Virus record (IMG/VR): IMGVR_UViG_3300021473_000001
DNA: 58,715 nt
Origin: an uncultured virus (IMG/VR IMGVR_UViG_3300021473_000001)
Taxonomy: Duplodnaviria; Heunggongvirae; Uroviricota; Caudoviricetes
Strand: one strand, 5' to 3'
This document shows positions 13,995-54,971 of this stretch, in pieces. The position numbers were made by a program, and so were the translations under genes. Position 1 is the stretch's first letter, and every line of letters begins with the position of its first letter. Under the pieces are notes generated by a model. That model was not told where the DNA came from, ran no database searches, and saw only the letters and a program-made list of their open reading frames with translations.

Positions 13995-14073
13995 TCTTAA
14001 CTCATTGAATATTAACCATTTAAAATAAATATTATGAATACATCTTAATTAAATCTAAGGTTTTGTAATTGAC

Positions 14074-14186
14074 ACACCTTTATTTAGCAGTAACACGGAT
14101 AATGAGTCTAACACTGGTACTTTTACGTTAAATTCTTATAATGGAGTTTCAAATCTGAATGTGAATATTGGTTCTCAGCAAAGCTT
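14074..14186 (+). ncRNA. DGR template repeat (TR)
   Basis: A-rich non-coding copy of the VR upstream of RT, flanked by complementary arms at 14059-14070 and 14201-14212. Confidence 0.95.
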
Positions 14187-14293
14187 AAAACAAAAATAGA
14201 AATTACAAGACCATACCTCTAGGTAAAAAATAAAGAAATGCTACATTCTGTTTGGTAGGTCTCTCGAAGAACAGGTAGTGAAATAAGCAAACT

Positions 14294-15352
14294 ATGAAAC
14301 GATTTGGATATTTATATGAGAAGGTTTATGATATGGATAATCTAATTTTGGCACATAAAAATGCCAGAAAGGGTAAGTTGCATTATAAAGAAGTTCAAAA
14401 AATAGATAAAGATCCAGAAAAGTATTTAAATGAATTACAAATATTACTAAAAGAAAAGAAATTTAAGAACTCTAAGTATGTAGTCTTTAAAAAGAAGACA
14501 GATAATGGGAAGATAAGAGAGATTTATAAACTTCCATATTTCCCAGATAGGATAGTGCATCATGCTATTATTCAGATCACAGAAAAGATTTGGAAGAATT
14601 CTTTAATCAGGGATACATTCTCATCAATTAAAGGGAGAGGAATACACGATGGCGTTAGAAGACTCACAAAAGCATTAAGAGACAAGGAAAATACTATATA
14701 TTGTTTAAAAATGGATATTTCTAAGTATTACCCTTCGATAGATAATGATATTTTAAAAGAGGTAATTAGAAAGAAAATCAAAGACAACAATTTACTCTAC
14801 TTATTGGATGAGATTATTGATAGTACTAAAGGCATACCGATAGGCAATTATCTTTCCCAATATTTTGGAAACTTATATCTTAGTGAATTAGATCACAAGT
14901 TAAAAGCTAAACACAAATGTTATTTTAGATATTGCGATGATACGGTTATTCTACATAAGTGTAAATTTGTATTACATAGAGTAAAGAAGTTCATTGAACA
15001 ATATCTTCTAAAATTTAGAAAGTTGAAATTAAAACCAAACTGGCAAGTCTTTCCAATTGTTATCAGAGGAATAGATTTTTTGGGATATAGAAACTTTCAT
15101 AACTTCAAGCTTCTTAGGAAAACAATAAAACTAAAATTTATTACCCTTGTTAAAAATATCAAACTTAATTATCAAATACTTTCTAAGTACAAAATAATTA
15201 ATGGTATTATGAGCTACAATGGATGGTTTAAATATGGAAATTGCTTAAATTTAACAAGAAAATACGTTTCTGCAGAAATAAGACAAATATTCACAAACAT
15301 CTCTATGTTGAATAATATTAATAATCCTCTCTTAAATACATATAAACTATGA
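14294..15352 (+). CDS. DGR reverse transcriptase
   Basis: PDRIVHHA, KMDISKYYPSI, GIPIGNYLSQ (DGR-type SQ), YFRYCDD, GIDFLGY. Confidence 0.97.
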   Translation: MKRFGYLYEKVYDMDNLILAHKNARKGKLHYKEVQKIDKDPEKYLNELQILLKEKKFKNSKYVVFKKKTDNGKIREIYKLPYFPDRIVHHAIIQITEKIWKNSLIRDTFSSIKGRGIHDGVRRLTKALRDKENTIYCLKMDISKYYPSIDNDILKEVIRKKIKDNNLLYLLDEIIDSTKGIPIGNYLSQYFGNLYLSELDHKLKAKHKCYFRYCDDTVILHKCKFVLHRVKKFIEQYLLKFRKLKLKPNWQVFPIVIRGIDFLGYRNFHNFKLLRKTIKLKFITLVKNIKLNYQILSKYKIINGIMSYNGWFKYGNCLNLTRKYVSAEIRQIFTNISMLNNINNPLLNTYKL

Positions 15353-15603
15353 ATAATATAATAAGAAAATCAGAAAGTGATACAATACCAATTCCTTTAG
15401 AGAAGTTACAGGGAGGATTGTTAATCAGAACTAACATCAATAAGAAAGAATCGGTAGATTTATCTGGAGGAATAAGGATAAGTTATACATATGATGAGGT
15501 TTGGACAGACTCTTCTTTAGAAGACATAATTAACATAGCTTCTCTTTCTCCAGAACATACATTAAATCAGGAACAGTTACAATATTTAAAATCTAAGCTA
15601 TGA
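15349..15603 (+). CDS. Hypothetical protein translationally coupled to RT
   Basis: ATGA overlaps on both sides. Confidence 0.7.
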   Translation: MNNIIRKSESDTIPIPLEKLQGGLLIRTNINKKESVDLSGGIRISYTYDEVWTDSSLEDIINIASLSPEHTLNQEQLQYLKSKL

Positions 15604-15974
15604 GTAAAAATTTATTCCTTTCTCCAATTCTTGCGCCTGTATATGAAGATATAGCTTTTGAGTTTAGAGATATAATGCCAGGAACTGGTCAAGAATATGT
15701 TCTTGATATATCTGCTTCTTATAGTTATTCTATTGAAAGTGCTACTTTACAAGTTGATACAGGAACATTAACTGGTGTACAAATAACCATAGAATCACAA
15801 GCCCCTGCTGTACTATCTCTCTCAAATCTAACAGTAGGTAACACTGTTACTACAACCTATTCTACAGGAGCTAAAATAGTCCCTTTAACAAAGGGTGTAT
15901 CTCTCGTTACATCAACAGGATATACTGGTGCTCCTACATTATTAAGAGGTAAAATTAAAATTGTAAGAATATGA
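15600..15974 (+). CDS. Hypothetical beta-rich structural protein
   Basis: Coupled ORF, Thr/Ser/Val rich. Confidence 0.65.
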   Translation: MSKNLFLSPILAPVYEDIAFEFRDIMPGTGQEYVLDISASYSYSIESATLQVDTGTLTGVQITIESQAPAVLSLSNLTVGNTVTTTYSTGAKIVPLTKGVSLVTSTGYTGAPTLLRGKIKIVRI

Positions 15975-16603
15975 GACTAAATTATATACAGTCTAATAAG
16001 CCAAATTTTACCACTTATGGAGCATTATATAATTGGTATGCTGCAACTAACGCTGCTAATATCTCTGCTTCTGGTTGGGTAGTTCCTACAAAAATCCAGT
16101 TTGAAGTAATGCAAGCATATTTAAGTACTAATCCAAGTCATAAATTAAGAACAACAGGAACAACTTATTGGACATCTCCTAATACTGATGCTTCAAATTC
16201 AAGTGGATTTAATGGACGAGGTGGTGGATATCGAACTACCTCTGTGGGAGATTTTGTAGAAATAAAAGACGTATTATATATTATGTTGTCTACTTATCAA
16301 AATATAAAAATATTATCATATAATTCTGGAAGTGTTTTAACGGGGGCATACAGTTATGAAAATTATGGAGTATCTGTTAGACTATTGAAATCATCAACTA
16401 TATTAACAAATGGACAAACAGGAACTTATACAGGAAATGATGGAAGAGTATATACAACTATTTGTATTGATTCGCAAGAGTGGATGTCAGAGAATCTTAA
16501 AGAAACTAAATATAGAGATGGCTCACTTATACCAATATTGACAAATCATACTGCATGGAATGCAGATACAACAGGAGCGAGATGTTCTTATAATAATGCA
16601 TAA
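15971..16603 (+). CDS. FISUMP (Fib_succ_major)-like domain protein, circularly permuted
   Basis: YGALYNWYAA, GWVVPT, NSSGFNGRGGGYR, GVSVRLLK, followed by NDGRVYTTICIDSQEWMSENL. Confidence 0.8.
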   Translation: MRLNYIQSNKPNFTTYGALYNWYAATNAANISASGWVVPTKIQFEVMQAYLSTNPSHKLRTTGTTYWTSPNTDASNSSGFNGRGGGYRTTSVGDFVEIKDVLYIMLSTYQNIKILSYNSGSVLTGAYSYENYGVSVRLLKSSTILTNGQTGTYTGNDGRVYTTICIDSQEWMSENLKETKYRDGSLIPILTNHTAWNADTTGARCSYNNA

Positions 16604-17268: not shown

Positions 17269-18270
17269 ATGAAAAAGAGACCAATAATATTATGCGAGGC
17301 GTGCGGACGTAAATCTATTGGCCATAGTAAAGTTTTATGCAGGGCTTGCTATGAAGCTAAATTCTTTAATAGATTGTCCAATCCACAGAAACTTGCAAGT
17401 AGAAATTTTATCGAAGGGGACCATGGTATTATTATTGACAGTAGAAAAAAGAAACATGTCCTAACCTTAGAAGAATTTGAGAAGGCAAAACCTTATTTCT
17501 GGGATGGTAATCCTAATGGCTGTGCGACAAATCAATGGGTTGGTTCATTATTGACATTTATCGGAAGGATAACCAGAAAAAAGGATATTAAAGTTTTAGT
17601 TGCTGATCGGCCAGATAGAGAGTGGTCGTATGAATATAAAATTATTGACCAGAAGAAAAAATATACAATGGTCATTTATAAAGCAATTTCTCCATCAGGT
17701 AAAGTATATATCGGTAAAACTATTGAGTCTTTATCAAAGAGAATATCTGCACATAAGAAGGCAGCACAGAGATTTTCTAAGGGAGGTAAGTTTATGACCG
17801 CTATTCGTAAGTATGGAGTTGATAATTTCAAGTGGGAAGTTCTGGAAACCACGGAAGATTACGATGTTTTAAATGCTTTAGAGTGTTGGTATATTCAGTA
17901 TTATGATTCAATCAGCAAAGGATATAATACTCATGTTGGAGGGGATATTGGAACATTTGGGAGTCATTTAAGCGAAGAAACAAAAGAAAAATTAAGACAG
18001 GCAAATTTAGGAAAGAAACGATCATATACTTGGACAAAGGAAATGTATAATAACACTCATGACAGATTAAATAAACCGTGGACTGTTGTCTTTTCTGATA
18101 ATGGTGAAATATTAGGATATGGAAGAAATGACAAAGATGCGTCAATTAGATCTGGCATATCTAAGGGGTCTATATTTAATTTAAAAACAAATAAATATCC
18201 ATCACGGATGGGGATTACCGTTAGAACTATGAAGAAATATGAACTACAACAATTAAACATAGCGATATGA
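17269..18270 (+). mobile_element. Free-standing GIY-YIG homing endonuclease with N-terminal Zn ribbon and NUMOD3-like repeat
   Basis: CEAC...CRAC; VIYKAISPSGKVYIGKT; GYN; HLSEETKEKLR. Confidence 0.85.
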
Positions 18271-20089: not shown

Positions 20090-20449
20090 ATGCAACCAGC
20101 CCTTATCCTTACAGATTCTATTGTCCTTTCGGTGATTGGAGCAATACTATTAATCATAATCGGCATTACTGGTTACTTTATAAACCTTTGGATACACTCA
20201 ACGGAATTGCGAGATGTTAACAGAGATGAGTCAAATCGGAAAAGAGAAGATGCGATGAATTTAGTATTGCAAAATCTAACCGATACCCTTGTTGATGTCA
20301 ATCTGAATCTGAAAGTCTACCAAGCAAGCATGAATGGGACGTTGCACGCGATTAAAAGTAGCCAAACAAAACAATCTGATTGCCTTGAGAAACACGACAT
20401 ATCAATTCAAGACCACGAAATCCGATTAACAGTAATTGAAAGGAGGTGA
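20090..20449 (+). CDS. Membrane-anchored coiled-coil protein (holin-like or antiholin-like)
   Basis: N-terminal TM helix; C-terminal HEIRLTVIE. Confidence 0.55.
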   Translation: MQPALILTDSIVLSVIGAILLIIIGITGYFINLWIHSTELRDVNRDESNRKREDAMNLVLQNLTDTLVDVNLNLKVYQASMNGTLHAIKSSQTKQSDCLEKHDISIQDHEIRLTVIERR

Positions 20450-20796
20450 GCATGAAGGCATTGATAGTTGAAGATGATATTGTTTTTTTAACGGAGATAA
20501 AAATTTGTCTCTCAATGATGGAATGGGAAAGTGATGATGCAATGAACGGTTATGATGCCATTAAGTTACTTCAGAAAAATGAGTACGATTTGATTATAAC
20601 TGATATTATGATGAGCGAAATGAGCGGAATAAAGCTAATTGACTACATTAAACAAAAGTATAAGACACCAATACTAGTGATGACTTGCATGGATTTGAAT
20701 TACTTTGATAAAATTAAATACCCATATGTCTGGAATAAGATCGGGTTGGATGTATTACAAAAACTGATTAAAAAGGCAATAAATGGAAATCGATGA
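20446..20796 (+). CDS. Single-domain response regulator receiver (CheY-like)
   Basis: ALIVEDD, DLIITDIMM..MSG, PILVMT, terminal K. Confidence 0.85.
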   Translation: MSMKALIVEDDIVFLTEIKICLSMMEWESDDAMNGYDAIKLLQKNEYDLIITDIMMSEMSGIKLIDYIKQKYKTPILVMTCMDLNYFDKIKYPYVWNKIGLDVLQKLIKKAINGNR

Positions 20797-20990: not shown

Positions 20991-23900
20991 TCATAGTAAA
21001 TGTTTAATTTCATTAATTATCATTTTTCCTGAAATACTATTATGACATTCAAACTGTCTATCTGTTCCTTGATGATATTTACACCAATCCCAATCCCCTT
21101 TGTTGAATACTGTATCTATCTCGTTCCAACAACCATGACATATATTTTTATTAGTAATTCTGATACAATTTGTAGACCATTCATGCCAATCTTCTGTAAA
21201 ATTTGAAAGAAGTACAGTTTGTTTATTCATAGCAAAAGCAAGCCATCCAAGACCAGAACTTAATACTATTGCAAATTTACTATGATATATTACATTCATA
21301 GTATTTGATAAAGAGCTATCAAGAATTTGTGTACAATGATTAAATTCATTCTTTTCCTTAGAAACGTTAATGATATTATATCCTTTATTATATATATAAT
21401 CTATTACTTCTTGCCATGTTTCTTTTTTAAAGAACTTACAACCCATTGTCGAGTTTGTAGCAATCGTTACATAAGGTTTTGATGTAGGGAGTTTACCTAT
21501 TTTATAGGCTATTCTTGGTTGTAGTTCCTCATGATCAAGTCCTAGAATATTACTGGCACATTTCTGTAAAGAAATAGTGTTAGGAATCTCTGGCTCTCTC
21601 ATAGGATCATAAAACCATCCTGGTCTATATTGGGCTATAATATTATGAACAGTCATCCCTGGTTCTACGAATTCAAGTTCTGGATAGACACTCTTGAACA
21701 AATCATTCTTGAAGGTACTTACAATTACATGGCAATTGTGTTTCTCCTTAAACTTTAGAGCATAAGGTATCCATGCAATACTATCTCCCAAGGATGAGCT
21801 ATCGAATGATATTAAGACTCTCTGGCCTGTAAAATCTAATGTCTTATCGTAGATCAATATATCATCCTCCCACACCTTAGCAGTCCATTTGATAAAGTAT
21901 CTACGATGGAGCTGTACCCAATTATTAGCTGTTGTACTATGTTCATAATGGCACACTCCTTGTTCATCATAAAACTTTATATGATACATAGCAGTGCTTT
22001 CACCTGTGATTTCAAGGAAAGGAAAATCTACAAAGTGTTGTGTGATCTTTACAGCTGATGTTGGATTAGAAATTACTACAGCAGAATCATGTATTCGTAA
22101 ATATAACTCATTATGAGCTTCACCAAATTCTTTTATTGTATTATCTAAAGGAATATCATAATCTCGTTCTATGGTGGTAAGATCAGTATCAATAGATTGT
22201 AAATAATGAGTGAACATATCTCCATATGCTTCCAGATTCCTGGCAATGATTGGCAGACCATATCCAATAGCCTCCCTAAGAGCTAAAGGACTACATTCGA
22301 ATGTAGAATTAAACATGAAGATGTCTGCAGCCTGATAAAAAAGTTCAACGTCATCTCTTTCATCCCATATAGTGACATTGAAAGGTATATACTTCATCAA
22401 AGGTTCCCAATAGTCTTTAAAATTGCCTGCTCTGTTTCCTACAAAATGAAACTGCATGTTAGGATATCTTCTGGCAATCTCAAGTCCTTCTTTTTGATTT
22501 TTCCCTTTTGTCCAAAGTCCCACGTTTAAAACATGCTTCCTTCCTTTCTGCATTCCTAGTCTATTTTTAGCTTCTCCTTTATCCCATACTTTATAAGTAT
22601 TATTATCAATAGGAAACTGTATCACCTCTTTGTAAGAAACCATGTTCTTAAAGATTTCCATATGATAAGGAGTACAGAAAGCATATGCATCAGGATGAAA
22701 CTTCTTCTCAAGATCTGGTTTGAATACAACATTGTGACATGTCTCTACAATTCTCCAGGTTCTATCACTGGCATATAACTGACTCATTAATCTAAAAGGA
22801 CAGTTTGTAAGATGCTCTATCATCTCATCAATGTGAACTACATCAATTCGATTAGTTTTAATAATTTTCATTAGTTCTTCTTTATCTTCTCCTAGAGAAT
22901 AGAAATTACTAACTAATTTCATTATTTTGTCTCTTTGAACAATGAAGCGAGGGCTGACACATTGCCATTCTACTACATAAATTTCAACCTCTGGATTTAA
23001 CAGAAGAGCCTCTATTCTCTTCAAAAGGAATGCAGGCATCCCTCCTGTTGAAAGGTGACTAGGTAAGAAAAGTATACGCATTGGTTTGTTTTTTAATTTA
23101 TTATTGGTCTTAATGTTAATTACATCATCATTCATGGATATAGTATAGTTTGGATAATCAGGAATAATTTTTGTAGGATTATCCAATTGAGCAATTATAT
23201 CTATCATTTTGTTCATATTATCAATTTTCTTCTCACCATGTAAGAACATCAATTCTTCTTTTCTCTTAGGCATTGTCACCCACTCTTTCATATGTTTCCC
23301 ATATTCATATGTATTAAATACATCTGATATAGTTTCCAGTTTAGCATTAACATATACCAGGGGTAATCCTTTCTGTATGTTATATTTCCACAATAGTACA
23401 TTTACTATTGTCTCTTCGTGATATGGAGCATACCATTGTGGATTCTTTAACACAGCAGGATGATTACACATCCAATTCCACTCATCTAAGAATCCTATAG
23501 AATGTTGACCAGCTACAAAATAACCAGTTTGTCTGTATCTTTCTCTTACACATTGATCTACACCAAACAATGTACATGCAGGATGTTCCAGAGTAGTAGA
23601 CAGATCGTTTTTGCTTTCTGCTCCTCCTCTGCGATTGATGTGTAAATAATCATAAATACCTTCTACAAAATAAGGATGTGCAGCACCCACTGGATAGTAG
23701 TCAAATATACGATCTACGTACTGTGTAGCTATAGAATCAGAATCTACATAGGCCACAGTCTTGGCATAATTTTCCAGAGCATCTTTTATAACAAGAGGAC
23801 GTTGAATCATTGTTGGATATAACCTGGAATTCTCTCTATTGATAAATTCTTCTTGTGGAAGATTTGCAATATCACATTCCCAAGGAATAACTGTTGCACC

Positions 23901-24539
23901 TTCTATGTCTGCATAATAATCAAGTAGGTAAACAATAATAGGAATGTCACTGAATTTTCTGATAGAATTCACTGCTCCCTGTACAGTATTAATATAACTT
24001 CTTGTTGCATACAACACATACGCTTTCTCTTCTCTATGATCTGGGAATGTATAATATCCATAGTATTGATCACTGTATAAACAAACAAGACTAGGATAAC
24101 GTTCTTTCATCACTTCAGGAGTTAGATCTTCCTGATGATGAGTTTCATATCTATTACCATCGACTTCCCCTTGAGCCATCATGTAAGGTACAGCTACCAA
24201 ACACTGTTTTTCATAATTTTTAATCTTATTAATTAGACCCTGAGCATGTAGAGGAATAATATGTTCAAGTACATCACCAAGAATAATAACATCATAATCC
24301 TGTATATCAAAATTTAGAATGTCTTTGATGTAAACATTATCATAAAGACTTCGAAGTTTGAATTGTTCTACATAGGGTTCGTAGATTTCAACAGCATCAA
24401 TTCTATATCCTATAGAATGAAGCAGAGTAGCGTAAGTACCACAACCTGGCCCTACGTCAAGAATTCTTTTGGACGTAGGAATGTTCTCAAGAAACCATTG
24501 TTTGATTTCTTGTTTAAAAAGTGTGTAACTGTTTGGCAT
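20991..24539 (-). CDS. Multidomain enzyme: SAM methyltransferase + GT-A-like + GT4-like + TibC/Aah-like protein O-heptosyltransferase
   Basis: ILDVGPGCG; YVDSDS; HLSTGGMP...KNQ...ECSPLALREA; SLGDSIAW...LSSGLGWLA...CHGCWN...WDWC..H.GTDRQFEC (four-Cys iron-finger pattern). Confidence 0.8.
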   Translation of the reverse strand: MPNSYTLFKQEIKQWFLENIPTSKRILDVGPGCGTYATLLHSIGYRIDAVEIYEPYVEQFKLRSLYDNVYIKDILNFDIQDYDVIILGDVLEHIIPLHAQGLINKIKNYEKQCLVAVPYMMAQGEVDGNRYETHHQEDLTPEVMKERYPSLVCLYSDQYYGYYTFPDHREEKAYVLYATRSYINTVQGAVNSIRKFSDIPIIVYLLDYYADIEGATVIPWECDIANLPQEEFINRENSRLYPTMIQRPLVIKDALENYAKTVAYVDSDSIATQYVDRIFDYYPVGAAHPYFVEGIYDYLHINRRGGAESKNDLSTTLEHPACTLFGVDQCVRERYRQTGYFVAGQHSIGFLDEWNWMCNHPAVLKNPQWYAPYHEETIVNVLLWKYNIQKGLPLVYVNAKLETISDVFNTYEYGKHMKEWVTMPKRKEELMFLHGEKKIDNMNKMIDIIAQLDNPTKIIPDYPNYTISMNDDVINIKTNNKLKNKPMRILFLPSHLSTGGMPAFLLKRIEALLLNPEVEIYVVEWQCVSPRFIVQRDKIMKLVSNFYSLGEDKEELMKIIKTNRIDVVHIDEMIEHLTNCPFRLMSQLYASDRTWRIVETCHNVVFKPDLEKKFHPDAYAFCTPYHMEIFKNMVSYKEVIQFPIDNNTYKVWDKGEAKNRLGMQKGRKHVLNVGLWTKGKNQKEGLEIARRYPNMQFHFVGNRAGNFKDYWEPLMKYIPFNVTIWDERDDVELFYQAADIFMFNSTFECSPLALREAIGYGLPIIARNLEAYGDMFTHYLQSIDTDLTTIERDYDIPLDNTIKEFGEAHNELYLRIHDSAVVISNPTSAVKITQHFVDFPFLEITGESTAMYHIKFYDEQGVCHYEHSTTANNWVQLHRRYFIKWTAKVWEDDILIYDKTLDFTGQRVLISFDSSSLGDSIAWIPYALKFKEKHNCHVIVSTFKNDLFKSVYPELEFVEPGMTVHNIIAQYRPGWFYDPMREPEIPNTISLQKCASNILGLDHEELQPRIAYKIGKLPTSKPYVTIATNSTMGCKFFKKETWQEVIDYIYNKGYNIINVSKEKNEFNHCTQILDSSLSNTMNVIYHSKFAIVLSSGLGWLAFAMNKQTVLLSNFTEDWHEWSTNCIRITNKNICHGCWNEIDTVFNKGDWDWCKYHQGTDRQFECHNSISGKMIINEIKHLL

Positions 24540-24569: not shown

Positions 24570-24676
24570 ATAAATTGTTTGGTGGAATCAAAATTAATAC
24601 ATAGTTTTGATTAACTATGTTAAGCACTATTTCTATGAAAGAATAGTGCTTTATTTTTGCTATTTTATCTATTGTC

Positions 24677-25105
24677 ATGACTATGAAGAATAATTTGGAA
24701 TTAGTCCAGGAACTACTGGAAACAAGATTAATAAGTCTAAATGAAAAAATTGACTCTAATAACAATCATATGTTAGAAGTCTTAGGCTTCATTAGAGAAC
24801 AGACAACAAAAACAAATGGACGAGTAACAACATTAGAATTACGAGTACCTGAGATAATTAGTGATGAAAATAAACACATACTCAATTGTCCCAGAATAAC
24901 TGAAATACAAAAATTAGAAGAAAAGTTAGAAAAATTCAATGATGACAACTTCATTATAAAAGTCATAAATAAATGGCCTAAACAAGTAATAGGAGTAATT
25001 GTGGTAAGTATTATACTTACAATAATTGCAACAGGATATAGTATTTATCAAGGTCATGAAATGATAACAGAAATTAAAACAGAATTATCAAAAACAACTA
25101 AATGA
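24677..25105 (+). CDS. Coiled-coil membrane protein of the lysis module
   Basis: EQTTKTNGRV motif, C-terminal TM helix; adjacent to the endolysin. Confidence 0.55.
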   Translation: MTMKNNLELVQELLETRLISLNEKIDSNNNHMLEVLGFIREQTTKTNGRVTTLELRVPEIISDENKHILNCPRITEIQKLEEKLEKFNDDNFIIKVINKWPKQVIGVIVVSIILTIIATGYSIYQGHEMITEIKTELSKTTK

Positions 25106-25713
25106 ATATAGTAATAAAATATTGGTATTCTTTTATCATATTGCTCTTGGTTGTTTTGCTTTTAGTATCAAGATGTAATCAACCTAAACCTGATCCTCAG
25201 AAACCTATTATTACAAGAGATACTGTATGGATCTCACATACAGACACTGTACATACAAAACCTAAATTAGTATATACAGATCCTAAAGTTAGAATTGATT
25301 CAATATTTTTACCAAATAAAGACTATGCAACACTTCGTAAACAGTATCAAGATCTACTTACACTTTATTTTCAAAGGAATGTTCTAAAAGACACTCTTAA
25401 ATTAGACTCCTTAGGAAAGGTATATATTACAGACACTTTATCAAAGAACCTTATTTCTGGAAGAGTGTATAATTATACAATAAAGTATCCTAAAGTAATC
25501 GAAACAATTACACTTTCTCCCATCTCACGAAATCAATTATATATAGGAGGAATGCTTCAAGGCAATATAACTAATCCTGTTAGTCAAATTAACACAGGAT
25601 TAATCCTGAAGAATAAGAAAGATCAACTCTATGGTATATCTGCAGGAATAAATAAAGATGGTCAAATGATAATAGGAGTATCATCATACTGGAAGATAAG
25701 TTTTAGAAAATGA
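25102..25713 (+). CDS. Putative spanin-like membrane protein
   Basis: N-terminal hydrophobic helix + SRC, DTV/DTL repeats, C-terminal beta strands ending YWKISF. Confidence 0.55.
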   Translation: MNIVIKYWYSFIILLLVVLLLVSRCNQPKPDPQKPIITRDTVWISHTDTVHTKPKLVYTDPKVRIDSIFLPNKDYATLRKQYQDLLTLYFQRNVLKDTLKLDSLGKVYITDTLSKNLISGRVYNYTIKYPKVIETITLSPISRNQLYIGGMLQGNITNPVSQINTGLILKNKKDQLYGISAGINKDGQMIIGVSSYWKISFRK

Positions 25714-25916
25714 TTGAATATTTAAAAAGTCTAATAAACTCAAAGCAACCAGAGAGTAGTAAAAGATTCATATCTTTAGTATCACTACTGATGTATATTA
25801 TAATTGTATTATATGCAATGATTAAACATGTAACAATTGATCCTCCTATAATTTATTCATTGATATCATTAATATTAGGAAGTTCAGCAATGACATTAGT
25901 TCAAAATAAACAATAA
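25710..25916 (+). CDS. Putative holin (2 TM)
   Basis: SSKRF followed by two hydrophobic helices; upstream of the endolysin. Confidence 0.65.
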   Translation: MIEYLKSLINSKQPESSKRFISLVSLLMYIIIVLYAMIKHVTIDPPIIYSLISLILGSSAMTLVQNKQ

Positions 25917-25918
25917 TA

Positions 25919-25949
25919 GTCGCACCTTGCAGAGGGCGTGGATTGAAAC
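25919..25949 (+). CRISPR. Solitary type I-C-like CRISPR repeat unit (no array, no cas genes seen)
   Basis: GTCGCACCTTGCAGAGGGCGTGGATTGAAAC, a GC-rich island in an AT-rich intergenic gap. Confidence 0.75.
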
Positions 25950-25971
25950 AAAATAAACAATAACAATAATA

Positions 25972-26490
25972 ATGGCACTGGATCAAACAACCCTATCTAG
26001 GATTATGCAACTTCATCCTGCTTTAATTAGAGAAGTTAAAGATCTGTATATGAATCAGATAGTTCCTGCTCTTAATAGTTCTGTATCCTGTAGATTTGCA
26101 TATACACTCAGATCTTTTGCTGATCAAGATCAATTATATGCACAAGGTAGAACAAAACTATTTGATCAGAGTGGTAAGCGTTTAGGGATAATTACTAATG
26201 CTAAAGGTGGTCAGAGTCTACATAATTATGGGATGGCTCTTGACATTGTATTACTTGATGGTGTAACTGCTTCCTGGAATACTATCAAAGATTATGATGG
26301 TGATGGTGATTCTGATTGGATAGAAATAGTTACTATTTTTAAAAATGCTGGTTGGGAATGGGGTGGTGATTTCGCATCTATTAAAGATGCCCCTCATTTT
26401 CAAAAAACATTTGGATATACTTGGCAAGATCTTTTAGAGAAATATAACCAAAAAGATTTTATTCCAGGTAGTTACTATGTTAATTTATAA
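25972..26490 (+). CDS. Endolysin, M15 family (L-Ala-D-Glu peptidase-like)
   Basis: RS...QDQLYAQGRT, TNAKGGQSLHNYGMALD, WGGDF...DAPHFQ. Confidence 0.9.
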   Translation: MALDQTTLSRIMQLHPALIREVKDLYMNQIVPALNSSVSCRFAYTLRSFADQDQLYAQGRTKLFDQSGKRLGIITNAKGGQSLHNYGMALDIVLLDGVTASWNTIKDYDGDGDSDWIEIVTIFKNAGWEWGGDFASIKDAPHFQKTFGYTWQDLLEKYNQKDFIPGSYYVNL

Positions 26491-26529: not shown

Positions 26530-27948
26530 ATGCCAATCCCCAGCAGGCCAATAGGTCAAGACCCTGTATCAGAGCAGTTGTGGAGAATATCAAAACAATT
26601 TGAACAATTGATTGGACTAGCAAGTAAAATTTCACCTGTTCCACCTGTTCCACCTATTGTCAATAATATAGAAATACTATTTAATAGTATTGTAACTGCT
26701 GATCTTTTAATAGGTGGCAGTTCTTCTGATTTTAATGTATGGAACACATTCTTTGATCTCCCTACAAATGGTACACCTTTCACATCAGTTACAGTTAATG
26801 CCACAAAGGTTACATTATATGGTGGAAGTAACATTCATATAAAAGATTCATTGTTTGGTCCTCCCTCTGGATATGGTCTTTCTTTAATATCAATTGTTGA
26901 TAGTGGATGTATTGTTAGTGCTGGAGATTATTGTTTCGAGGGTGCTGGATTAAAAATTATTAATTTTAGTGCTTTAACAACAGCTGGAGAGGGTTGTTTC
27001 TATTATTGTACAGGACTAGTTTCTCCTAGTTTTCCTGTATTGACAACTGCTGGAAATGATTGTTTCAATAGTTGTACAGAACTAGTTTCTCCTGATTTTA
27101 GTGCTTTAACAACTGCTGGAGATAATTGTTTCAGTAGTTGTACAGGATTAATTAGTCCTAATTTTCTTGTATTGACAACAGCTGGAGAGGATTGTTTTGA
27201 TAGTTGTACAGAACTTGTTTCTCCTGATTTTAGTGCTTTAACAACTGCTGGAAATGGTTGTTTCAATAATTGTACAGGATTAATTAGTCCTAATTTTTCC
27301 AATTTAGCAACTGCTGGAACAATTTGTTTTGGTAGTTGTTCTAATTTATTTAATCCAGATTTTTCAAGTTTAGTAACAGCTAGTAGTGGTTGTTTCAATA
27401 GTTGTACAGGACTAGTTTCTCCTAGTTTTCCTGTATTGACAACTGCTGGAAATGATTGTTTCTATTATTGTACAGGACTAGTTTCTCTTGATTTTAGTGC
27501 TTTAACAACTGCTGGAGATAATTGTTTCCAAGGTTGTGAAGGACTTGTTTCTCCTGATTTTAGTGCTTTAGCAACTGCTGGAGATAATTGTTTCAATAGT
27601 TGTACAGGATTAATTAGTCCTAATTTTTCAAGTTTAGTAACAGCTAGTAGCGGTTGTTTTCAACTGTGCATTGCATTAGTAAGTCCTAGTTTCCCAAGTC
27701 TTACAACAGTTGGTGATAGTTGTTTTCAAGGTTGTACATCATTAACAACAATTAATCTTCCTATTTGTACTGCTTTAGGCTCTACAGTTGGAGATGATAG
27801 TGTATTTGGTGGAATAATAAATAATACAATAACGTTAACCGTTCCTTCAGCCTTAATGACTTGCAATGATGGAATTACTACCTTTGATCCAGATGGAGAT
27901 ATTCAATACTTAAATGCAAACAACACTTTAACAATAATACAAGTATGA
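26530..27948 (+). CDS. BspA-like (LRR_5) Cys-containing leucine-rich repeat surface protein
   Basis: About 12-13 repeats of 22 aa: F(S/P)xLTTAGxxCFxxCTGLxSPx. Confidence 0.8.
   Translation: MPIPSRPIGQDPVSEQLWRISKQFEQLIGLASKISPVPPVPPIVNNIEILFNSIVTADLLIGGSSSDFNVWNTFFDLPTNGTPFTSVTVNATKVTLYGGSNIHIKDSLFGPPSGYGLSLISIVDSGCIVSAGDYCFEGAGLKIINFSALTTAGEGCFYYCTGLVSPSFPVLTTAGNDCFNSCTELVSPDFSALTTAGDNCFSSCTGLISPNFLVLTTAGEDCFDSCTELVSPDFSALTTAGNGCFNNCTGLISPNFSNLATAGTICFGSCSNLFNPDFSSLVTASSGCFNSCTGLVSPSFPVLTTAGNDCFYYCTGLVSLDFSALTTAGDNCFQGCEGLVSPDFSALATAGDNCFNSCTGLISPNFSSLVTASSGCFQLCIALVSPSFPSLTTVGDSCFQGCTSLTTINLPICTALGSTVGDDSVFGGIINNTITLTVPSALMTCNDGITTFDPDGDIQYLNANNTLTIIQV
26900..27780 (+). repeat. 66-nt coding tandem repeats
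   Basis: Example: a 60-nt block at 27007 recurs at 27403 (6 x 66 nt apart). Confidence 0.9.
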
Positions 27949-29378
27949 CAATATCAAGTAGACCAATAGGTCAAGACCCAGTGTCACAACAATTGTGGCG
28001 TATATCTAAACAAATGGAACAGTTAATTGGTGTTGTAGCTAGGATTGTTCCTACCACAACAACTACTTCTACAAGTACATCTACTAGTACATCTACAAGT
28101 ACAACTACATCTACTAGTACAACCACTTCTACAACCACTACTGCATTACCAATTATTCAAGGAGCTTATTATCTTGCTCCAACTGGTGATGATATAACAG
28201 GAGATGGAACTTCTACTACTCCTTGGTTTACACTTAACAAAGCATGGACGGTTATTGGTGCTGGAGACACTGTTTATTTGCGTGGTGGAACATATGCTCA
28301 CAATTCACAACAATATCTTACAGGTAAAAATGGAACTGTGACAAACCCAATTAATATACTCGCTTACCCAAATGAAACTCCTGTTATTTCAAAGAGTATA
28401 AGTTACACAGAACCAACAGGAAAGGGAATAATATTTACAGGTGATTATTTTCGCTGGAAAGGAATTTCAGTTACAGGATTTGTGCAGATAGCGGTCGATG
28501 AGTGGCCCAGACCCTTCCATGCCGTTGACTGTGCCTACTGTACCTTCGAACAAATGGATATTCACCACAATGGATGGGGTTTTGAGTTGGGTCAAAGTGC
28601 TGGATCATCAAAAGTGACTACAGGTAATCTATTTCTCAATTGTGATTTCCATCATAATTATGACCCTTTGACAACAGATGCCTATGGTAATGCTGACGGA
28701 TTAGACTTGGGAAATATGACTTGTACAGGTGCAACTAATACTGTTAGAGGGTGTAGATTTTACTCCAATAGTGATGATGGTATTGATTTATGGAGCAATG
28801 ATGGTACTGTAATTATGGAAAACTGCTGGGCATTCTCTAATGGTTATCGTGAAGATGGAGTGACTACAGGGGGTGATGGTAATGGTTTTAAACTTGGATC
28901 GTCAACTATTAATCGTTCTACTGAAGTAACAAGAATACTAAATAACTGTATTGCAGTTACTAATAGATTTATTGGCATAATTGAAAATGCGGTGTTAGGA
29001 AAGACACAAGCATATAATAATACAATTTACCTAAATGCCTATGGCATTAAGTTATCCTCTTCAATCGCACATATTATTAAAAACAGTATTGCTTATAATA
29101 ATTCAGGCTATGATGTTGATCTAGGTTCAAATGTAGTTACTGCAACTAATTCATGGGTTGGAACTACAGACGTACCTGCTATTGCAATTACCAATGCAGA
29201 TTTTGTAAGTCTTGATTTAACATTATTATTAACTGCTCGTCAAGCGAATGGTGATTTACCTATCACTAACTTTTTAAGATTAGCAAATGGATCAGCCCTT
29301 ATTGATGCAGGAACAGACGTTGGTCTTCCTTATACTGGAACAGCACCTGATATTGGAGCCTATGAAAGTATTCCTTAA
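27945..29378 (+). CDS. Right-handed beta-helix polysaccharide lyase (PL9/PelL-like) with a Thr/Ser linker
   Basis: GDTVYLRGGTY, NADG, NSDDGIDLW, GDGNGFKLG, APDIGAYE. Confidence 0.8.
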   Translation: MTISSRPIGQDPVSQQLWRISKQMEQLIGVVARIVPTTTTTSTSTSTSTSTSTTTSTSTTTSTTTTALPIIQGAYYLAPTGDDITGDGTSTTPWFTLNKAWTVIGAGDTVYLRGGTYAHNSQQYLTGKNGTVTNPINILAYPNETPVISKSISYTEPTGKGIIFTGDYFRWKGISVTGFVQIAVDEWPRPFHAVDCAYCTFEQMDIHHNGWGFELGQSAGSSKVTTGNLFLNCDFHHNYDPLTTDAYGNADGLDLGNMTCTGATNTVRGCRFYSNSDDGIDLWSNDGTVIMENCWAFSNGYREDGVTTGGDGNGFKLGSSTINRSTEVTRILNNCIAVTNRFIGIIENAVLGKTQAYNNTIYLNAYGIKLSSSIAHIIKNSIAYNNSGYDVDLGSNVVTATNSWVGTTDVPAIAITNADFVSLDLTLLLTARQANGDLPITNFLRLANGSALIDAGTDVGLPYTGTAPDIGAYESIP

Positions 29379-36549: not shown

Positions 36550-38418
36550 TTAGTCTTTTTCTTCGGATGTAAGTAAATTAATGTCTTGGATTCTATCTGT
36601 GGTTTGGATTTTTCCAATGATGGCTTGTTTGAGCTCGTCATAAAATTCAGGATTGTCCTGAAGAAGGATTTTAAATTCAGTGGTTTCATATTTTATATCT
36701 TTATAGGTAACTGATTTGCCATATTTTACTAAGATTCCAAATTCTTCACCAAGTTCAACAATTTCTGTAGATTTATCAATACCCTTACCATAGACAATTT
36801 CAAACTGACAAGTCTTATAAGGTGAAGACATTTTATTCTTAACACATTTAATCTTTGTAATGTTTCCATAAGTGACATCACCATCTTTGGCAAGAGTCTT
36901 TGACACTTCTACCCTTACATCAGAATAAAACTTTAAAGCATGTCCTCCTTGAGTAGTAGTAGGATTACCAAACATGATTCCTATTTTCTCACGATATTGA
37001 CTTATCACTACAACACATGTCTTATGTTGAACCAGGGCATTCTTTAGTCTTGGATAGGCATTACTATTCAACCTGGCCTTCTTACCAATTGTAGATTCAC
37101 CAACATCACCATCCACAATAGCAGCTTTAGGTATCAAAGAGGAATCTGAATCAATAATAATAAGATCTATTTCTCCTGTCTTAATCATATCCTCAGCAAT
37201 TTGAAATCCCTCTTCACCACAAGAAGGTTGAGCAATCAACATCTTTGTAGTATCAACTCCCAGGGCCTGGAAATAACGCTTATCAACAGCATGTTCTCCA
37301 TCAATGTAAACAGCTACTCCTCCTGCTCTTTGGCAATTGGCAACCATCTCTCCACAAATAGTACTCTTTCCAGAATTATGTACTACTATTCCATTGGCAA
37401 TAAAATTATTGTATGGAAAGTAACACTTAATATCATAAGTCATCATCTCTCCTACAGATCTAATATTGACTATCTCATCAGCCGTAACAACAAATCTAAG
37501 ATTATTATGCTTGTTAATAGCATGTAGCCTTGCATGATCTGAACAGGTTATCATCTCAAGATTTTCAATACTATTATTGGTAGTATCTTCATCTTTATGA
37601 TGTATTTCATATCCTTCAGGAATAGTGATGAAATCATTAGGTAGAGCACTGCTTTTATTAAGTAGACGTATATAATCTTTATAACTAATGTTGTTCATTT
37701 CAGCTTCGAATGTAAGCCTGTGAACTCTTTCCCTGTAATAAAGAAAACCATTTGTTTCTTTTCTCTTCCCACGATAATAGAAGTTTATGGTAGTTTCCTT
37801 GTACTTATTTCTATCACGACATACACTGTTTCTATATGGAGTATTATCGTGAATAAATACAATATCTCCTTCTTTTAATTCATCCAGAGGAACAAATTTA
37901 TTACCTACATAGAACTTATGATCCTTTGTAGCCTTAATTTTAAATCCTTTAAATGTCAGGAGCTCAAAGCATTCCTTCACACCAGACTTTACCACATCTG
38001 CAATAGGATTTCTAAACACTCTGTCTTCTTCATTAACAGAAGCTACATTGAACTCCGTATCCTTTGTTTTCTCAGTGCGATTATGAAATCTTTCATACAA
38101 ATTTTTAATTGTTCCTCCTTTACAATCTTGAACAATTCCATCACGTCTCACATTAATGAATTTAATGTAGGTATCTTCTGCAAGACATCCTTCCCAGCCC
38201 ATCAGTTCAATCAATTTACCTTTGACACCTCCACCTACACCCAGAGCAATATAATCAAATCCAATGCTCCCTGTACTAATTACATCATAGTTTCCTTGAC
38301 TCTTACTATCTAAAGCTAAGATGGTCCCTATTCCATAACTTTTATTCAATTTCTCCATAGCAAGAGTAAACTTGCTCTTCCCTTTATCCTCTTCTGAGAC
38401 TTCTTTTTTCTTTGCCAT
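36550..38418 (-). CDS. recA: RecA recombinase containing an intein
   Basis: ISTGSIG.D, GWEG|SGKST, YIDGEHA, IIDS, SQYREKIG.MFGNPTTTQGGHALKFYS. Confidence 0.95.
   Translation of the reverse strand: MAKKKEVSEEDKGKSKFTLAMEKLNKSYGIGTILALDSKSQGNYDVISTGSIGFDYIALGVGGGVKGKLIELMGWEGCLAEDTYIKFINVRRDGIVQDCKGGTIKNLYERFHNRTEKTKDTEFNVASVNEEDRVFRNPIADVVKSGVKECFELLTFKGFKIKATKDHKFYVGNKFVPLDELKEGDIVFIHDNTPYRNSVCRDRNKYKETTINFYYRGKRKETNGFLYYRERVHRLTFEAEMNNISYKDYIRLLNKSSALPNDFITIPEGYEIHHKDEDTTNNSIENLEMITCSDHARLHAINKHNNLRFVVTADEIVNIRSVGEMMTYDIKCYFPYNNFIANGIVVHNSGKSTICGEMVANCQRAGGVAVYIDGEHAVDKRYFQALGVDTTKMLIAQPSCGEEGFQIAEDMIKTGEIDLIIIDSDSSLIPKAAIVDGDVGESTIGKKARLNSNAYPRLKNALVQHKTCVVVISQYREKIGIMFGNPTTTQGGHALKFYSDVRVEVSKTLAKDGDVTYGNITKIKCVKNKMSSPYKTCQFEIVYGKGIDKSTEIVELGEEFGILVKYGKSVTYKDIKYETTEFKILLQDNPEFYDELKQAIIGKIQTTDRIQDINLLTSEEKD
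37375..38187 (-). mobile_element. Intein (271 aa) with an HNH endonuclease in the RecA P-loop
   Basis: Starts CLAEDT, block B ATKDHKF, HHKDED..NN..ENL...H, ends NFIANGIVVHN/S. Confidence 0.93.
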
Positions 38419-53997: not shown

Positions 53998-54219
53998 TTA
54001 TACATCTGTATCTCCATTTTCAAACATGTTATCAATTCTTAAGCTTGTAAGAGATCTTTCAATATAATCAACTTCCTCAGCTTGTCTAAAATCTTCCATT
54101 TCTGGAAACTTATCTTCTCGCTCAAGATTATCCCAATCCACTAATATGTATTCTATAGGACCATCAGCAATCACATTAGTAACTATTCCTCCTTTTATTT
54201 CAATTATTATTTTTGTCAT
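53998..54219 (-). CDS. Hypothetical protein
   Basis: IEIKGG.V..V...VDWDN motif. Confidence 0.55.
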   Translation of the reverse strand: MTKIIIEIKGGIVTNVIADGPIEYILVDWDNLEREDKFPEMEDFRQAEEVDYIERSLTSLRIDNMFENGDTDV

Positions 54220-54971
54220 TATTTATAATTTTTAAATTTTTCTACTTTTTGTAAAATAAAATTTCTAAATTCATCAGATAAATTTTCGTAATCTTCTTTA
54301 TACATCCAAATAAAACCATTGTGAGAATGTCGTTTTCTTTGACAAACTGGAGTTATTTTAGAATCACTAGAATTTGTAGACGTTGCTGCTTCTCTTATAG
54401 TATAAAATTCTTTAATAAAATTTAGATGTTTATCTAATTGTATAATTCTTCTACCATGACTTTTTATCATATTATCAGTTGCTTTTTGAGAAGGTTTAAA
54501 TCCAATCATTCTTTTTCTACAAGATTCTATATGAGAAGGAGGCATTTTTCTTCCTTTTCCTGCTTCTGATATCTTCTTTTTAGTTTCATCAGAATGAGTT
54601 TTTCCATAAAAAGGATTTTCAACACCTCTAAACTTTGTTCTTCTTATTTCATTCTCTTCAGGAGTTTCATATCTATATCCTCCTTCTCCTCCCATAGTAT
54701 GATTTGTTAAATTAAATCCCCATTGGTTAAACTGATTAATCCAATAAGATTCTATTTCACATGCTAATTCACAAGAGCATTCTTCAATTTCCTCAATTAT
54801 AGGAATTAAATCTTGTTTTATTAAAGATTTCAACCAGTTAGTAGTTCGTCTTCTACTTCGTTTGCATTCATAAATATGTTCATTTAATCGTTGTTTTAAA
54901 GGATTGCATGTTTTTCCTATATATCTAATCTCATTAGTTATAGGATGGGCTAAAGAATAAATATATGCCAT
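54219..54971 (-). mobile_element. Free-standing GIY-YIG homing endonuclease with NUMOD3 and NUMOD1-like domains
   Basis: YIYSL...YIGKT, RL.EH, NPFYGKTHSDETKKKIS, C-terminal GFIWMY; likely start MAYIY. Confidence 0.88.

What the first reader, a model, noticed from the sequence alone, without database searches (positions are those of the whole stretch)
25919..25949. Solitary type I-C CRISPR repeat: candidate RNA anti-CRISPR (Racr)
Seen: GTCGCACCTTGCAGAGGGCGTGGATTGAAAC fills most of the 55-nt gap between holin and endolysin. It has the GTCGC start, an internal hairpin (CGC-A-CCT/AGG-GCG) and the GTGGATTGAAAC 3' end. I saw no second copy or cas gene. Known: I-C repeats are about 32 nt with this form and are processed by Cas5d; phage solitary repeat units can act as crRNA mimics. 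Inference: a Racr, or a Cas5d cleavage site that processes the endolysin mRNA, which would be a new link between host CRISPR and lysis. It is 1 nt shorter than typical.
Basis: partly seen in the sequence, partly recalled or inferred. Interest (0 to 1): 0.8.

Follow-up and report, generated by a model that had tools for sequence, protein, structure and literature searches.

The report
Lone host CRISPR repeat captured by phage
A lake phage carries one copy of a bacterial type I-C CRISPR repeat between its two lysis genes, placed as if it had been copied in at the very spot a host CRISPR system once targeted, which hints at how such lone repeats arise in phages.

Summary
The 31-nt sequence at 25919-25949 occurs once, in the 55-nt gap between a holin-like ORF and an M15 endolysin. 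It belongs to the type I-C repeat family and is 2 edits from the closest array repeat found. One edit is a 1-nt deletion that leaves a bulged, weaker hairpin. No cas gene lies in the window, and no host array with this exact repeat was found.

New: a 15-bp direct duplication of phage sequence (25902-25916 and 25949-25963) flanks the repeat. The upstream copy starts at TTC, the I-C PAM. The downstream copy starts right after the repeat, like a repeat-spacer junction. In a census of 116 solitary I-C repeats in viral contigs, 9 show such anchored duplications, against 39 of 3480 control positions. TTC or TTT precedes 5 of those 9, against 1 of 39 controls.

Best reading (0.45): the repeat was captured from a host array at a targeted protospacer. 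This separated PAM from protospacer, giving escape, and the repeat is now a decaying scar. A population variant carries two more changes that weaken the hairpin. Rivals are a Racr decoy (0.2) and a guide against relatives that lack the insertion (0.15).

It is a known kind of element (SRU) with a flank signature I did not find described. Earlier notes of this scan reported lone repeats with flank duplications on other DNA.

The parts
25919..25949 (+). Solitary type I-C-family CRISPR repeat, 31 nt. It has the 5' GTCGCACC block, a bulged hairpin and the 3' GCGTGGATTGAAAC block.
   Evidence: It is 2 edits from the array repeat of L015. The repeat family sits beside a cas3-cas5d-cas8c-cas7-cas4-cas1-cas2 operon in G002.
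25900..25902 (+). TTC, the type I-C PAM motif, directly before the upstream copy of the duplicated segment. Its C is shared with the 15-bp repeat.
   Evidence: TTC as the I-C PAM comes from the PMC8406640 abstract (listing). TTC or TTT is enriched at this position in other flanked solitary repeats.
25903..25916 (+). Upstream copy of the duplicated phage segment (AAAATAAACAATAA). It is the last 14 nt of the holin-like ORF, including its stop codon.
25917..25918 (+). TA filler between the upstream copy and the repeat. Alternatively it is part of a 16-nt copy, if the downstream copy carries a 6-nt CAATAA tandem.
   Evidence: reading of the sequence; inference
25950..25984 (+). Downstream copy (first 14 nt, 25950-25963), running on into the inferred full protospacer of about 35 nt. 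This stretch spans the endolysin start codon at 25972 and begins right after the repeat's last C, like a spacer.
   Evidence: The spacer length of 33-37 nt comes from arrays. The 3' limit is inferred.
25710..25916 (+). 68-aa holin-like ORF with two hydrophobic segments and no family match
25972..26490 (+). Endolysin (Peptidase_M15_4 / L-alanoyl-D-glutamate peptidase type)
24677..25713 (+). Two overlapping upstream ORFs (142 aa and 203 aa, membrane-anchored, no family match). With the holin-like ORF they form one tightly packed + strand block that follows a terminator-like hairpin at 24622-24651.

Best explanation
The element is one repeat of a bacterial type I-C CRISPR array that was copied into the phage genome at a protospacer the host's CRISPR system had targeted.

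Before the event, the holin stop and the endolysin ATG were about 8 nt apart. The sequence after a TTC PAM, from the holin 3' end into the endolysin start, was a legitimate I-C target. The insertion put the repeat between a 14-nt stub of that target, which keeps the PAM, and the full target, which is now preceded by the repeat's ...GAAAC, the same context a spacer has in an array.

Neither copy is now a PAM-flanked full protospacer, so the product would escape that spacer and could sweep through the population.

Shown:
- the repeat's family identity
- its precise borders
- the duplication and the TTC
- recurrence of this signature in other viral solitary I-C repeats
- presence of the element in all population variants examined

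Inferred:
- the donor array and its spacer
- the joining mechanism. This could be template switching or recombination with a spacer-repeat unit, or strand transfer by Cas1-Cas2 at the repeat borders. The precise borders on both sides favour the latter.
- the escape benefit
- that the repeat is today a passively co-transcribed, slowly decaying scar
For: 1. Family identity. The 22 fixed bases GTCGCACC...GCGTGGATTGAAAC match the repeats of at least 124 loci in genomes. The nearest is 2 edits away. In G002 such an array follows a full I-C operon.

2. Duplication. A 15-bp exact direct repeat flanks the element. It is the only such near-range 15-mer repeat in the window outside repetitive coding regions.

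3. Junction geometry. The upstream copy is preceded by TT, giving TTC. The downstream copy abuts the repeat's last base.

4. Census. All 206 IMG/VR loci matching GTCGCNCC N5-12 GCGTGGATTGAAAC gave 116 non-redundant solitary repeats.
- 9 of 116 have an anchored flank duplication (score >= 9), against 39 of 3480 random control positions (Fisher p = 1.6e-5; without this phage 8 of 115, p = 9.5e-5).
- TTC or TTT precedes the upstream copy in 5 of 9, against 1 of 39 controls (p = 4e-4; without this phage 4 of 8, p = 0.0018).
- The mirror position after the downstream copy gives TTY in 1 of 9, read from the listing.
- Duplications reach 33-37 nt, which is spacer length.

5. Compact junction. Removing the 47 nt leaves an 8-nt gene junction, in line with the overlapping genes upstream.

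6. Decay.
- The repeat has a 1-nt deletion in its 3' stem arm relative to array repeats.
- The variant in runs X3 and X5 has two more changes, at 25925 and 25928. These drop the canonical hairpin from -5.9 to -2.9 kcal/mol.

7. Not an assembly artefact. The junctions are bridged by separate contigs in 4 of 4 runs laid, from 3 studies, and in an IMG/VR contig.
Against: - No host array with this exact repeat, or its T-restored 32-nt form, was found. The metagenome scan gave 3 loci, none exact. A 401-genome sample of the phylum of G003 gave 0 matches.
- None of 1912 spacers from the fetched arrays matches the window. The best match was 16 nt.
- No relative with an uninterrupted site was seen, so the insertion is inferred only from the duplication.
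- For this locus alone the PAM adds just two bases (TT) of evidence.
- The left junction, a 14-nt stub plus TA joined to the repeat's first base, is not what simple homologous recombination with an array gives.
- 107 of 116 solitary repeats lack the signature.
- Two of the nine positives (L294, L143) have perfect or near-perfect spacer-length duplications that could be assembly loops between phage and array reads. Without them the count is 7 of 114 (p = 5e-4).
- Fixation in all sampled variants would also fit a useful function.
- The excess of substitutions in the repeat is not significant (2 of 31 against 4 of 375, p = 0.07).
Confidence: 0.45

Rival explanations
1. RNA anti-CRISPR (Racr). The repeat is transcribed with the lysis genes. 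Host Cas5d and Cas7 bind it and are diverted from real crRNAs, which weakens type I-C immunity.
For: - It is a solitary, intergenic repeat on a virus with no cas genes in the window, which fits the SRU definition.
- It is in the sense orientation within a + strand gene block.
- A type I-C Racr downstream of a gene in one transcript has been validated (RacrIC1; PMC10651486, passages).
- The 5' GTCGC and the whole 3' handle are intact.
- The element is kept in all 4 runs laid.
Against: - There is no promoter signal (11 sites against 15.1 expected).
- It lies in what looks like a late lysis operon, a poor time to block immunity.
- No acr or aca gene is nearby.
- In RacrIF1 the stem-loop was essential. 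Here it is weakened by a deletion (-8.0 or -5.9 kcal/mol against -10.6 for an array repeat) and weakened further in a natural variant.
- This reading does not explain the TTC-anchored duplication.
- The contig id and the sequence are absent from the 7 supplementary files of the Racr paper held as text.
Confidence: 0.2
2. Implicit one-repeat mini-array used against relatives.
- Cas5d cuts the repeat.
- The RNA that follows, the phage's own sequence from 25950 on, acts as a spacer.
- It guides host Cascade-Cas3 to co-infecting relatives that lack the insertion. Their allele would have TTC plus the full protospacer.
- The carrier is immune.
- Repair of the cut allele from the carrier would copy the repeat in, giving homing-like spread.
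For: - The geometry is what such a device needs: the repeat lies directly before a sequence that, in the inferred uninterrupted allele, follows a TTC PAM.
- The carrier's own two copies are disarmed.
- Viral mini-arrays are known to target related viruses, often at adjacent genes, and to lack leaders (PMC6858448 passages; PMC11656645 passages).
- The phage encodes its own RecA.
- No uninterrupted allele was seen in 4 runs.
Against: - There is no second repeat to define the 3' end of a crRNA.
- The hairpin is degraded and still degrading.
- No relative with the target allele was found, so no target is demonstrated.
- Contigs cannot show the absence of rare alleles.
Confidence: 0.15
3. Regulatory link between host CRISPR and lysis. 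Either Cas5d cleavage separates the holin and endolysin cistrons, or Cascade assembles on the RNA or on the 14-nt PAM-flanked DNA match and lowers endolysin expression. The second option is CreA/crlRNA-like partial-match repression.
For: - The endolysin ATG lies 22 nt after the repeat, within reach of Cas7 subunits on a processed RNA.
- A 14-nt PAM-proximal match with TTC lies directly upstream. This is similar in length to the partial matches used by crRNA-like regulators, which need at least 9 PAM-proximal bp (preprint 10.1101/2024.10.29.618823, section 7).
Against: - The phage gains no evident benefit.
- The same signature elsewhere ranges from 7 nt (too short to bind) to 33-35 nt (would be cleaved), which fits an origin mark better than a tuned regulator.
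- There is no second pseudo-repeat.
- The hairpin is decaying.
Confidence: 0.05
4. The repeat belongs to a CRISPR-Cas system encoded elsewhere in this large phage genome, outside the window. It is a processing site or stray repeat of that system.
For: The phage is large: a contig of 131,858 bases holds this region in run X3, and only 58.7 kb is visible. Earlier notes of this scan report such cases in other phages (unchecked).
Against: - No cas gene is present among 69 ORFs of the window.
- There is no second repeat or array in 58.7 kb.
- The repeat is GC-rich (58%) in a 30-34% GC genome, which points to foreign origin.
Confidence: 0.05

Closest known systems
Viral solitary repeat units (SRUs) and RNA anti-CRISPRs, including the type I-C RacrIC1 (Camara-Wilpert et al. 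2023, PMC10651486)
   Same: It is a single CRISPR-repeat copy in an intergenic region of a virus, with no cas genes nearby. It lies directly downstream of a gene in the same orientation and belongs to the I-C repeat family.
   Different: - It has no promoter of its own and no acr or aca neighbour.
- It lies between lysis genes.
- Its stem-loop is weakened.
- It is flanked by a PAM-anchored duplication of phage sequence. The passages I read do not mention such duplications ('recombination' occurs 0 times in the main text).
Virus-borne mini-CRISPR arrays used in inter-viral conflict (Medvedeva et al. 2019, PMC6858448; review PMC11656645)
   Same: A host-type repeat is followed by sequence matching the virus lineage near the insertion site. 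The carrier is protected by a changed target. Phage mini-arrays lack leaders and were suggested to arise by recombination with host arrays.
   Different: There is only one repeat. The 'spacer' is simply the phage's own continuing sequence. No targeted relative was found.
Viral crRNA-like regulators (Cracr) and host CreA/CreR (preprint 10.1101/2024.10.29.618823)
   Same: A repeat-like element is paired with a short PAM-proximal match (here 14 nt after TTC).
   Different: Cracrs have pseudo-repeats on both sides of a pseudo-spacer and match host cas or creT promoters. Here the match is to the phage itself, and no second repeat exists.
CRISPR escape mutants (PAM or seed point mutations, deletions) and spacer-mediated phage-array recombination (recalled: Varble et al. 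2019; not read here)
   Same: The net effect is loss of a PAM-flanked protospacer. The exchange with an array occurs at the spacer/protospacer.
   Different: Here escape would be by insertion of the array's own repeat between PAM and protospacer, with a short duplication. I did not find this described in my searches.

Membership tests
Type I-C CRISPR repeat family | Conserved 5' GTCGCNCC and 3' GCGTGGATTGAAAC blocks | tested here: met
   All 22 fixed bases match. The same blocks occur in the repeats of at least 124 genome loci.
Type I-C CRISPR repeat family | Length 31-33 nt with a perfect 6-7 bp GC-rich stem | tested here: inconclusive
   The length of 31 nt is within range. The stem has a 1-nt deletion in its 3' arm, leaving a bulged A. 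It folds at -8.0 (MFE) or -5.9 (canonical register) kcal/mol, against -10.6 for the L015 repeat.
Type I-C CRISPR repeat family | Repeats of this form lie next to I-C cas genes (cas3, cas5d, cas8c/Csd1, cas7, cas4, cas1, cas2) | tested here: met
   G002 contig C65 has the full operon. Csd1 scores 624 bits and Cas5d 119 bits. An array of this repeat family follows on the same strand.
Type I-C CRISPR repeat family | Occurs in an array of regularly spaced copies | tested here: not met
   There is a single copy in 58.7 kb, even with 3 mismatches. The 12-nt handle also occurs once.
Solitary repeat unit (SRU) | Full-length repeat match with no other full or partial repeat within about 100 bp, intergenic, on a mobile element | tested here: met
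   The viral nature of the window rests on tail, RIIA, endolysin and recombinase families.
Solitary repeat unit (SRU) | Not associated with cas genes | tested here: met
   None of 69 ORFs in the window is a cas gene. The rest of the phage genome is not held.
Racr (RNA anti-CRISPR) | Expressed as a small RNA, often from its own promoter | tested here: inconclusive
   Promoter-like sites number 11 against 15.1 expected, and none is notable. The scan covers sigma-70-type promoters only. No RNA data are available.
Racr (RNA anti-CRISPR) | Host carries a CRISPR-Cas system of the matching subtype with a similar repeat | not testable with these tools
   The host is unknown. No exact repeat was found in the scans run. 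The nearest cultured phages are very distant.
Racr (RNA anti-CRISPR) | Intact Cas-binding stem-loop (essential in RacrIF1) | tested here: inconclusive
   The stem is bulged, and a natural variant weakens it further to -2.9 kcal/mol in the canonical register. Cas5d tolerance is unknown.
Racr (RNA anti-CRISPR) | Binds Cas proteins and inhibits interference | not testable with these tools
   This needs a bench assay.
Viral mini-CRISPR array | A spacer flanked by two repeats, or by one full and one truncated repeat | tested here: not met
   No second repeat or handle was found.
Viral mini-CRISPR array | The spacer matches related viruses but not the carrier in targetable form | tested here: inconclusive
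   The carrier's copies lack a PAM plus full match. No relative with an uninterrupted site was found.
Cracr / crRNA-like regulator | Pseudo-repeat, pseudo-spacer, pseudo-repeat, with at least 9 PAM-proximal bp to a host cas or creT promoter | tested here: not met
   There is only one repeat. The 14-nt PAM-proximal match is to the phage itself. Host promoters are not testable.

The most novel reading that the evidence does not exclude
Solitary CRISPR repeats can be born when a host's own type I-C machinery acts on a targeted protospacer, and the product is more than a scar. The repeat sits in front of the phage's own protospacer. It therefore encodes a guide against the ancestral, uninterrupted allele (TTC plus full target), while the carrier is immune. 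With host Cascade-Cas3 as the nuclease and the phage's RecA for repair, the repeat would spread through a phage population like a homing element that borrows the host's CRISPR system.
Probability: 0.12. Interest if true: 0.85.

Novelty: new variant of a known kind. Interest (0 to 1): 0.55.

Why it matters
Thousands of lone CRISPR repeats are known in viruses, and some are RNA decoys, but how they get into viral genomes is open.

The signature found here has three parts:
- precise repeat borders
- a duplication of viral sequence of 7 to about 35 nt
- a TTC or TTT PAM at the start of the upstream copy

It ties a fraction of type I-C solitary repeats to the very protospacers that hosts target. 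If it holds, it gives three things.
1. A readable mark of past CRISPR attack inside phage genomes.
2. A previously undescribed escape route: insertion of the array's repeat between PAM and protospacer.
3. A testable route from escape scar to Racr or to inter-viral guide.

For this phage alone the element is probably of small consequence.

Tried and rejected
- **Rfam.** The only hit was a sub-threshold match to CRISPR-DR9 (16.4 bits, cut-off 45, E 1.6). It is not usable as evidence.
- **Own genome.** The assembly is not held. The nearest record, G001/L001/L126, is the same phage at 100% identity, so it is not independent.
- **Related phages.**
  - The DNA search found only short 72% endolysin matches.
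  - The protein searches found only distant phages.
  - The endolysin-based locus search returned only the phage's own contig.
- **Host array.**
  - The metagenome scan gave 3 loci with a different loop and stem.
  - 0 of 401 genomes of the phylum of G003 matched.
- **Spacers.** None of 1912 spacers from the fetched arrays matches the window. The best match was 16 nt.
- **Empty-site test for another flanked repeat.** The 34-nt duplicated segment of L143 was found only in its own contig.
- **Uninterrupted allele in lake metagenomes.** No joint across the insertion appeared in the contigs of 4 runs. Contigs drop rare variants.
- **RNA evidence.** No RNA holder was listed.
- **Orientation of solitary repeats relative to the coding strand.** A crude open-frame test was ambiguous: 55 of 82 unclear, 15 sense, 12 antisense.
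- **TT directly before the repeat in unflanked cases.** 11 of 82 against a 7.8% background, which is weak.
- **Other PAM-flanked partial matches in the window.** One 13-of-14 match at 33570 is at chance level (7 matches against 3.1 expected).
- **Substitution excess in the repeat.** Not significant.
- **Racr paper supplements.** Neither the contig id nor the sequence occurs in the 7 files held as text, which may be incomplete.
- **Faure et al. 2019.** I could not find it in the library, so I know its content only through citing papers.

Full report
**What is there**

The window reads GTCGCACCTTGCAGAGGGCGTGGATTGAAAC at 25919-25949 on the + strand.
- It is unique in the window with up to 3 mismatches, and no shuffle gave a match.
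- It lies in the 55-nt gap between a 68-aa ORF (25710-25916) and a 172-aa endolysin (25972-26490).
- The 68-aa ORF has two hydrophobic segments and no family match.
- The endolysin matches PHROG endolysin families and Pfam Peptidase_M15_4.
- The three ORFs from 24677 to 25916 overlap or abut one another and follow a terminator-like hairpin at 24622-24651. The repeat therefore sits inside a tight + strand block and in the sense orientation.
- The element is 58% GC in a region of about 30% GC.
- The window is phage DNA: tail proteins, RIIA, a Dda-like helicase, a RecA/UvsX-type recombinase and a reverse transcriptase.
- It holds no cas gene among 69 ORFs of 60 aa or more.
- The phage comes from lake and freshwater metagenomes: 13 runs in 10 studies, including two possible source samples.
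- No close cultured relative exists.

**Is it a type I-C repeat?**

Most were arrays with repeats of 31-33 nt of the form GTCGCACC(C)-loop-(G)GGTGCGTGGATTGAAAC.
- The nearest, in a Bacillota MAG (L015), differs by two edits: one loop base and one missing T in the 3' stem arm. The phage copy therefore has a bulged A.
- In the same genome (G002), a contig carries cas3, cas5d, cas8c (Csd1, 624 bits), cas7, cas4, cas1 and cas2, followed by an array of this repeat family.
- The family assignment is sound. Rfam adds nothing (16.4 bits against a cut-off of 45).
- The hairpin is modest: -8.0 kcal/mol, z -0.89, against -10.6 for the L015 repeat.

**The overlooked feature**

- CAAAATAAACAATAA occurs at 25902-25916 and again at 25949-25963. 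The element is thus bracketed by a 15-bp direct repeat whose last-copy C is the repeat's own terminal C.
- The upstream copy is preceded by TT, giving TTC followed by AAAATAAACAATAA. TTC is the type I-C PAM (PMC8406640 abstract in the listing; otherwise recalled).
- The downstream copy starts at the first base after the repeat and runs on into the endolysin start. This is how a spacer sits after a repeat.
- Removing one copy plus the 32 nt between them would leave 8 nt between the holin stop and the endolysin ATG, in keeping with the packed genes upstream. This is inference.
- An alternative parse makes the upstream copy 16 nt with no filler, if the downstream copy has a 6-nt CAATAA tandem.

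**Is this signature general?**

I took all IMG/VR loci that match GTCGCNCC N5-12 GCGTGGATTGAAAC. This gave 206 loci and 453 repeat matches.

Dropped before counting:

| Reason dropped | Matches |
|---|---|
| Within 60 nt of a locus end | 31 |
| Another repeat handle within 200 nt | 292 |
| Duplicate contexts | 14 |

That left 116 solitary repeats. I scored whether a segment starting 6-45 nt before the repeat equals the sequence starting right after it.

| Measure | Solitary repeats | Random control positions (same loci) | Fisher p |
|---|---|---|---|
| Duplication score >= 9 | 9 of 116 | 39 of 3480 | 1.6e-5 |
| Same, without this phage | 8 of 115 | 39 of 3480 | 9.5e-5 |
| TTC or TTT just before the upstream copy | 5 of 9 | 1 of 39 | 4e-4 |
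| Same, without this phage | 4 of 8 | 1 of 39 | 0.0018 |

- The other four upstream triplets are TTG, CTT, ATT and ATA. For the last two, a TTC lies 1 or 4 nt further in.
- At score >= 7, TTC or TTT precedes 8 of 14, against 4 of 91 controls.
- The mirror position after the downstream copy is TTY-equivalent in 1 of 9, read from the listing.
- Duplications are either short (7-19 nt, abutting the repeat with 0-4 filler bases) or spacer-length (33-37 nt; two perfect or nearly so, two diverged).
- Among 14 solitary repeats in bacterial genome loci, one (L016) has TTC plus a 14-of-16 match.

Caveats:
- 107 of 116 lack the signature.
- The two spacer-length near-perfect cases (L294, L143) could be assembly loops between phage reads and array reads that share a spacer. 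Without them the count is 7 of 114 (p = 5e-4).
- The short duplications, including this one, are below usual assembly word sizes and cannot arise that way.

**Is the element real in nature, and is it constrained?**

- Contigs from 4 of 4 runs laid (3 studies, 2018-2020) bridge the repeat and both junctions. Two are identical to the window. Two, from one study, are 95-99% alike and carry C>T at 25925 and T>C at 25928 inside the repeat.
- No contig skips the insertion, though contigs do not show rare alleles.
- The two changes lower the canonical hairpin from -5.9 to -2.9 kcal/mol.
- Two of six differences in a 406-nt contig fall in the 31 nt. This is suggestive of relaxed constraint but not significant (p = 0.07).

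**Reading**

The family identity, the precise borders on both sides, the PAM at the start of the upstream copy and the spacer-like downstream junction are best explained by capture of a repeat from a host type I-C array at a protospacer the host had targeted.

The product has a PAM with only a 14-nt stub, and a full protospacer behind ...GAAAC instead of a PAM. It would therefore escape that spacer.

How the joints formed is inferred.
- Homologous exchange or template switching with a spacer-repeat unit explains the spacer-length class.
- The short class has its left junction at the exact first base of the repeat. That border is defined only by Cas1-Cas2 integration chemistry, not by RNA processing. 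This favours strand transfer of phage DNA ends into an array repeat, with the PAM-side end trimmed as in adaptation and the other end inside the target. This step is speculation from recalled mechanism.

The weakened and still-weakening hairpin, the lack of a promoter and the lysis-gene setting suggest that the repeat is now mostly a scar.

**Rivals**

- **Racr.** A decoy role is possible, because a bicistronic type I-C Racr has been validated (PMC10651486). It does not explain the duplication and is weakened by the points above.
- **Implicit guide.** The repeat followed by the phage's own sequence would encode a guide against relatives that lack the insertion, in the spirit of viral mini-arrays. 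These target adjacent genes of related viruses, lack leaders, and were suggested to arise by recombination with host arrays (PMC6858448; PMC11656645). This reading lacks a second repeat and a demonstrated target.
- **Self-directed regulator.** Regulation of endolysin expression resembles crRNA-like regulators (preprint 10.1101/2024.10.29.618823). It fits the 7-35 nt range of duplications poorly.
- **Phage-encoded CRISPR system.** A system outside the window cannot be excluded, because the genome is not held.

**Novelty**

The element is a solitary repeat unit, a known kind. I did not find the PAM-anchored flank duplication described:
- in the passages of the Racr paper
- in the mini-array paper and review
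- through four full-text searches

Faure et al. 2019, the original SRU survey, was not available to me. Supplements of the Racr paper held as text do not list this contig.

Earlier notes of this scan (unchecked) report lone repeats with flank duplications, and one 'captured repeat-spacer junction', in other phages. This agrees in kind but is not independent evidence.

Noticed in passing
window 12528-16603: A reverse transcriptase (PHROG 1423 E 7e-104; Pfam RVT_1) sits just after a tail protein and before a Fib_succ_major-domain protein. This looks like a diversity-generating retroelement next to receptor-binding genes. Template and variable repeats were not looked for.
   Followed up: no
window 36550-38418 (-): A RecA/UvsX-type recombinase is interrupted by an intein with an HNH endonuclease (Pfam RecA, Intein_splicing, HNH_3).
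   Followed up: no
window 17269-18270 (+) and 54219-54998 (-): There are two GIY-YIG-type homing endonuclease genes, so homing elements are active in this genome.
   Followed up: no
window 26530-26620 and 27945-28035; loose ends at 26597-26598 in runs X4 and X5: Two consecutive genes (a BspA-type LRR protein and a pectate-lyase-like beta-helix protein) share a near-identical N-terminus of about 30 aa. Contigs from other lake samples diverge right after that conserved start (table 7). This suggests swappable receptor-binding cassettes behind a common anchor.
   Followed up: partly
window 20446-20796 (+): A stand-alone response-regulator receiver domain protein (116 aa) is encoded by the phage.
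   Followed up: no
window 20991-24539 (-): A 1182-aa methyltransferase plus glycosyltransferase fusion lies on the opposite strand, wedged between structural and lysis genes.
   Followed up: no
L130-L284 (solitary I-C repeats in viral contigs): The first two bases after solitary I-C repeats are A in 40 and 43 of 82 cases, well above composition. This is unexplained. It could reflect a preference of the capture process or an extended handle.
   Followed up: no
L294 301-333 and L143 601-632: Two viral contigs have a I-C repeat flanked by perfect or near-perfect 33-35 nt duplications (spacer-repeat-spacer look). They are either full spacer-repeat unit captures or assembly loops between phage and host-array reads. 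This needs read-level checking.
   Followed up: partly
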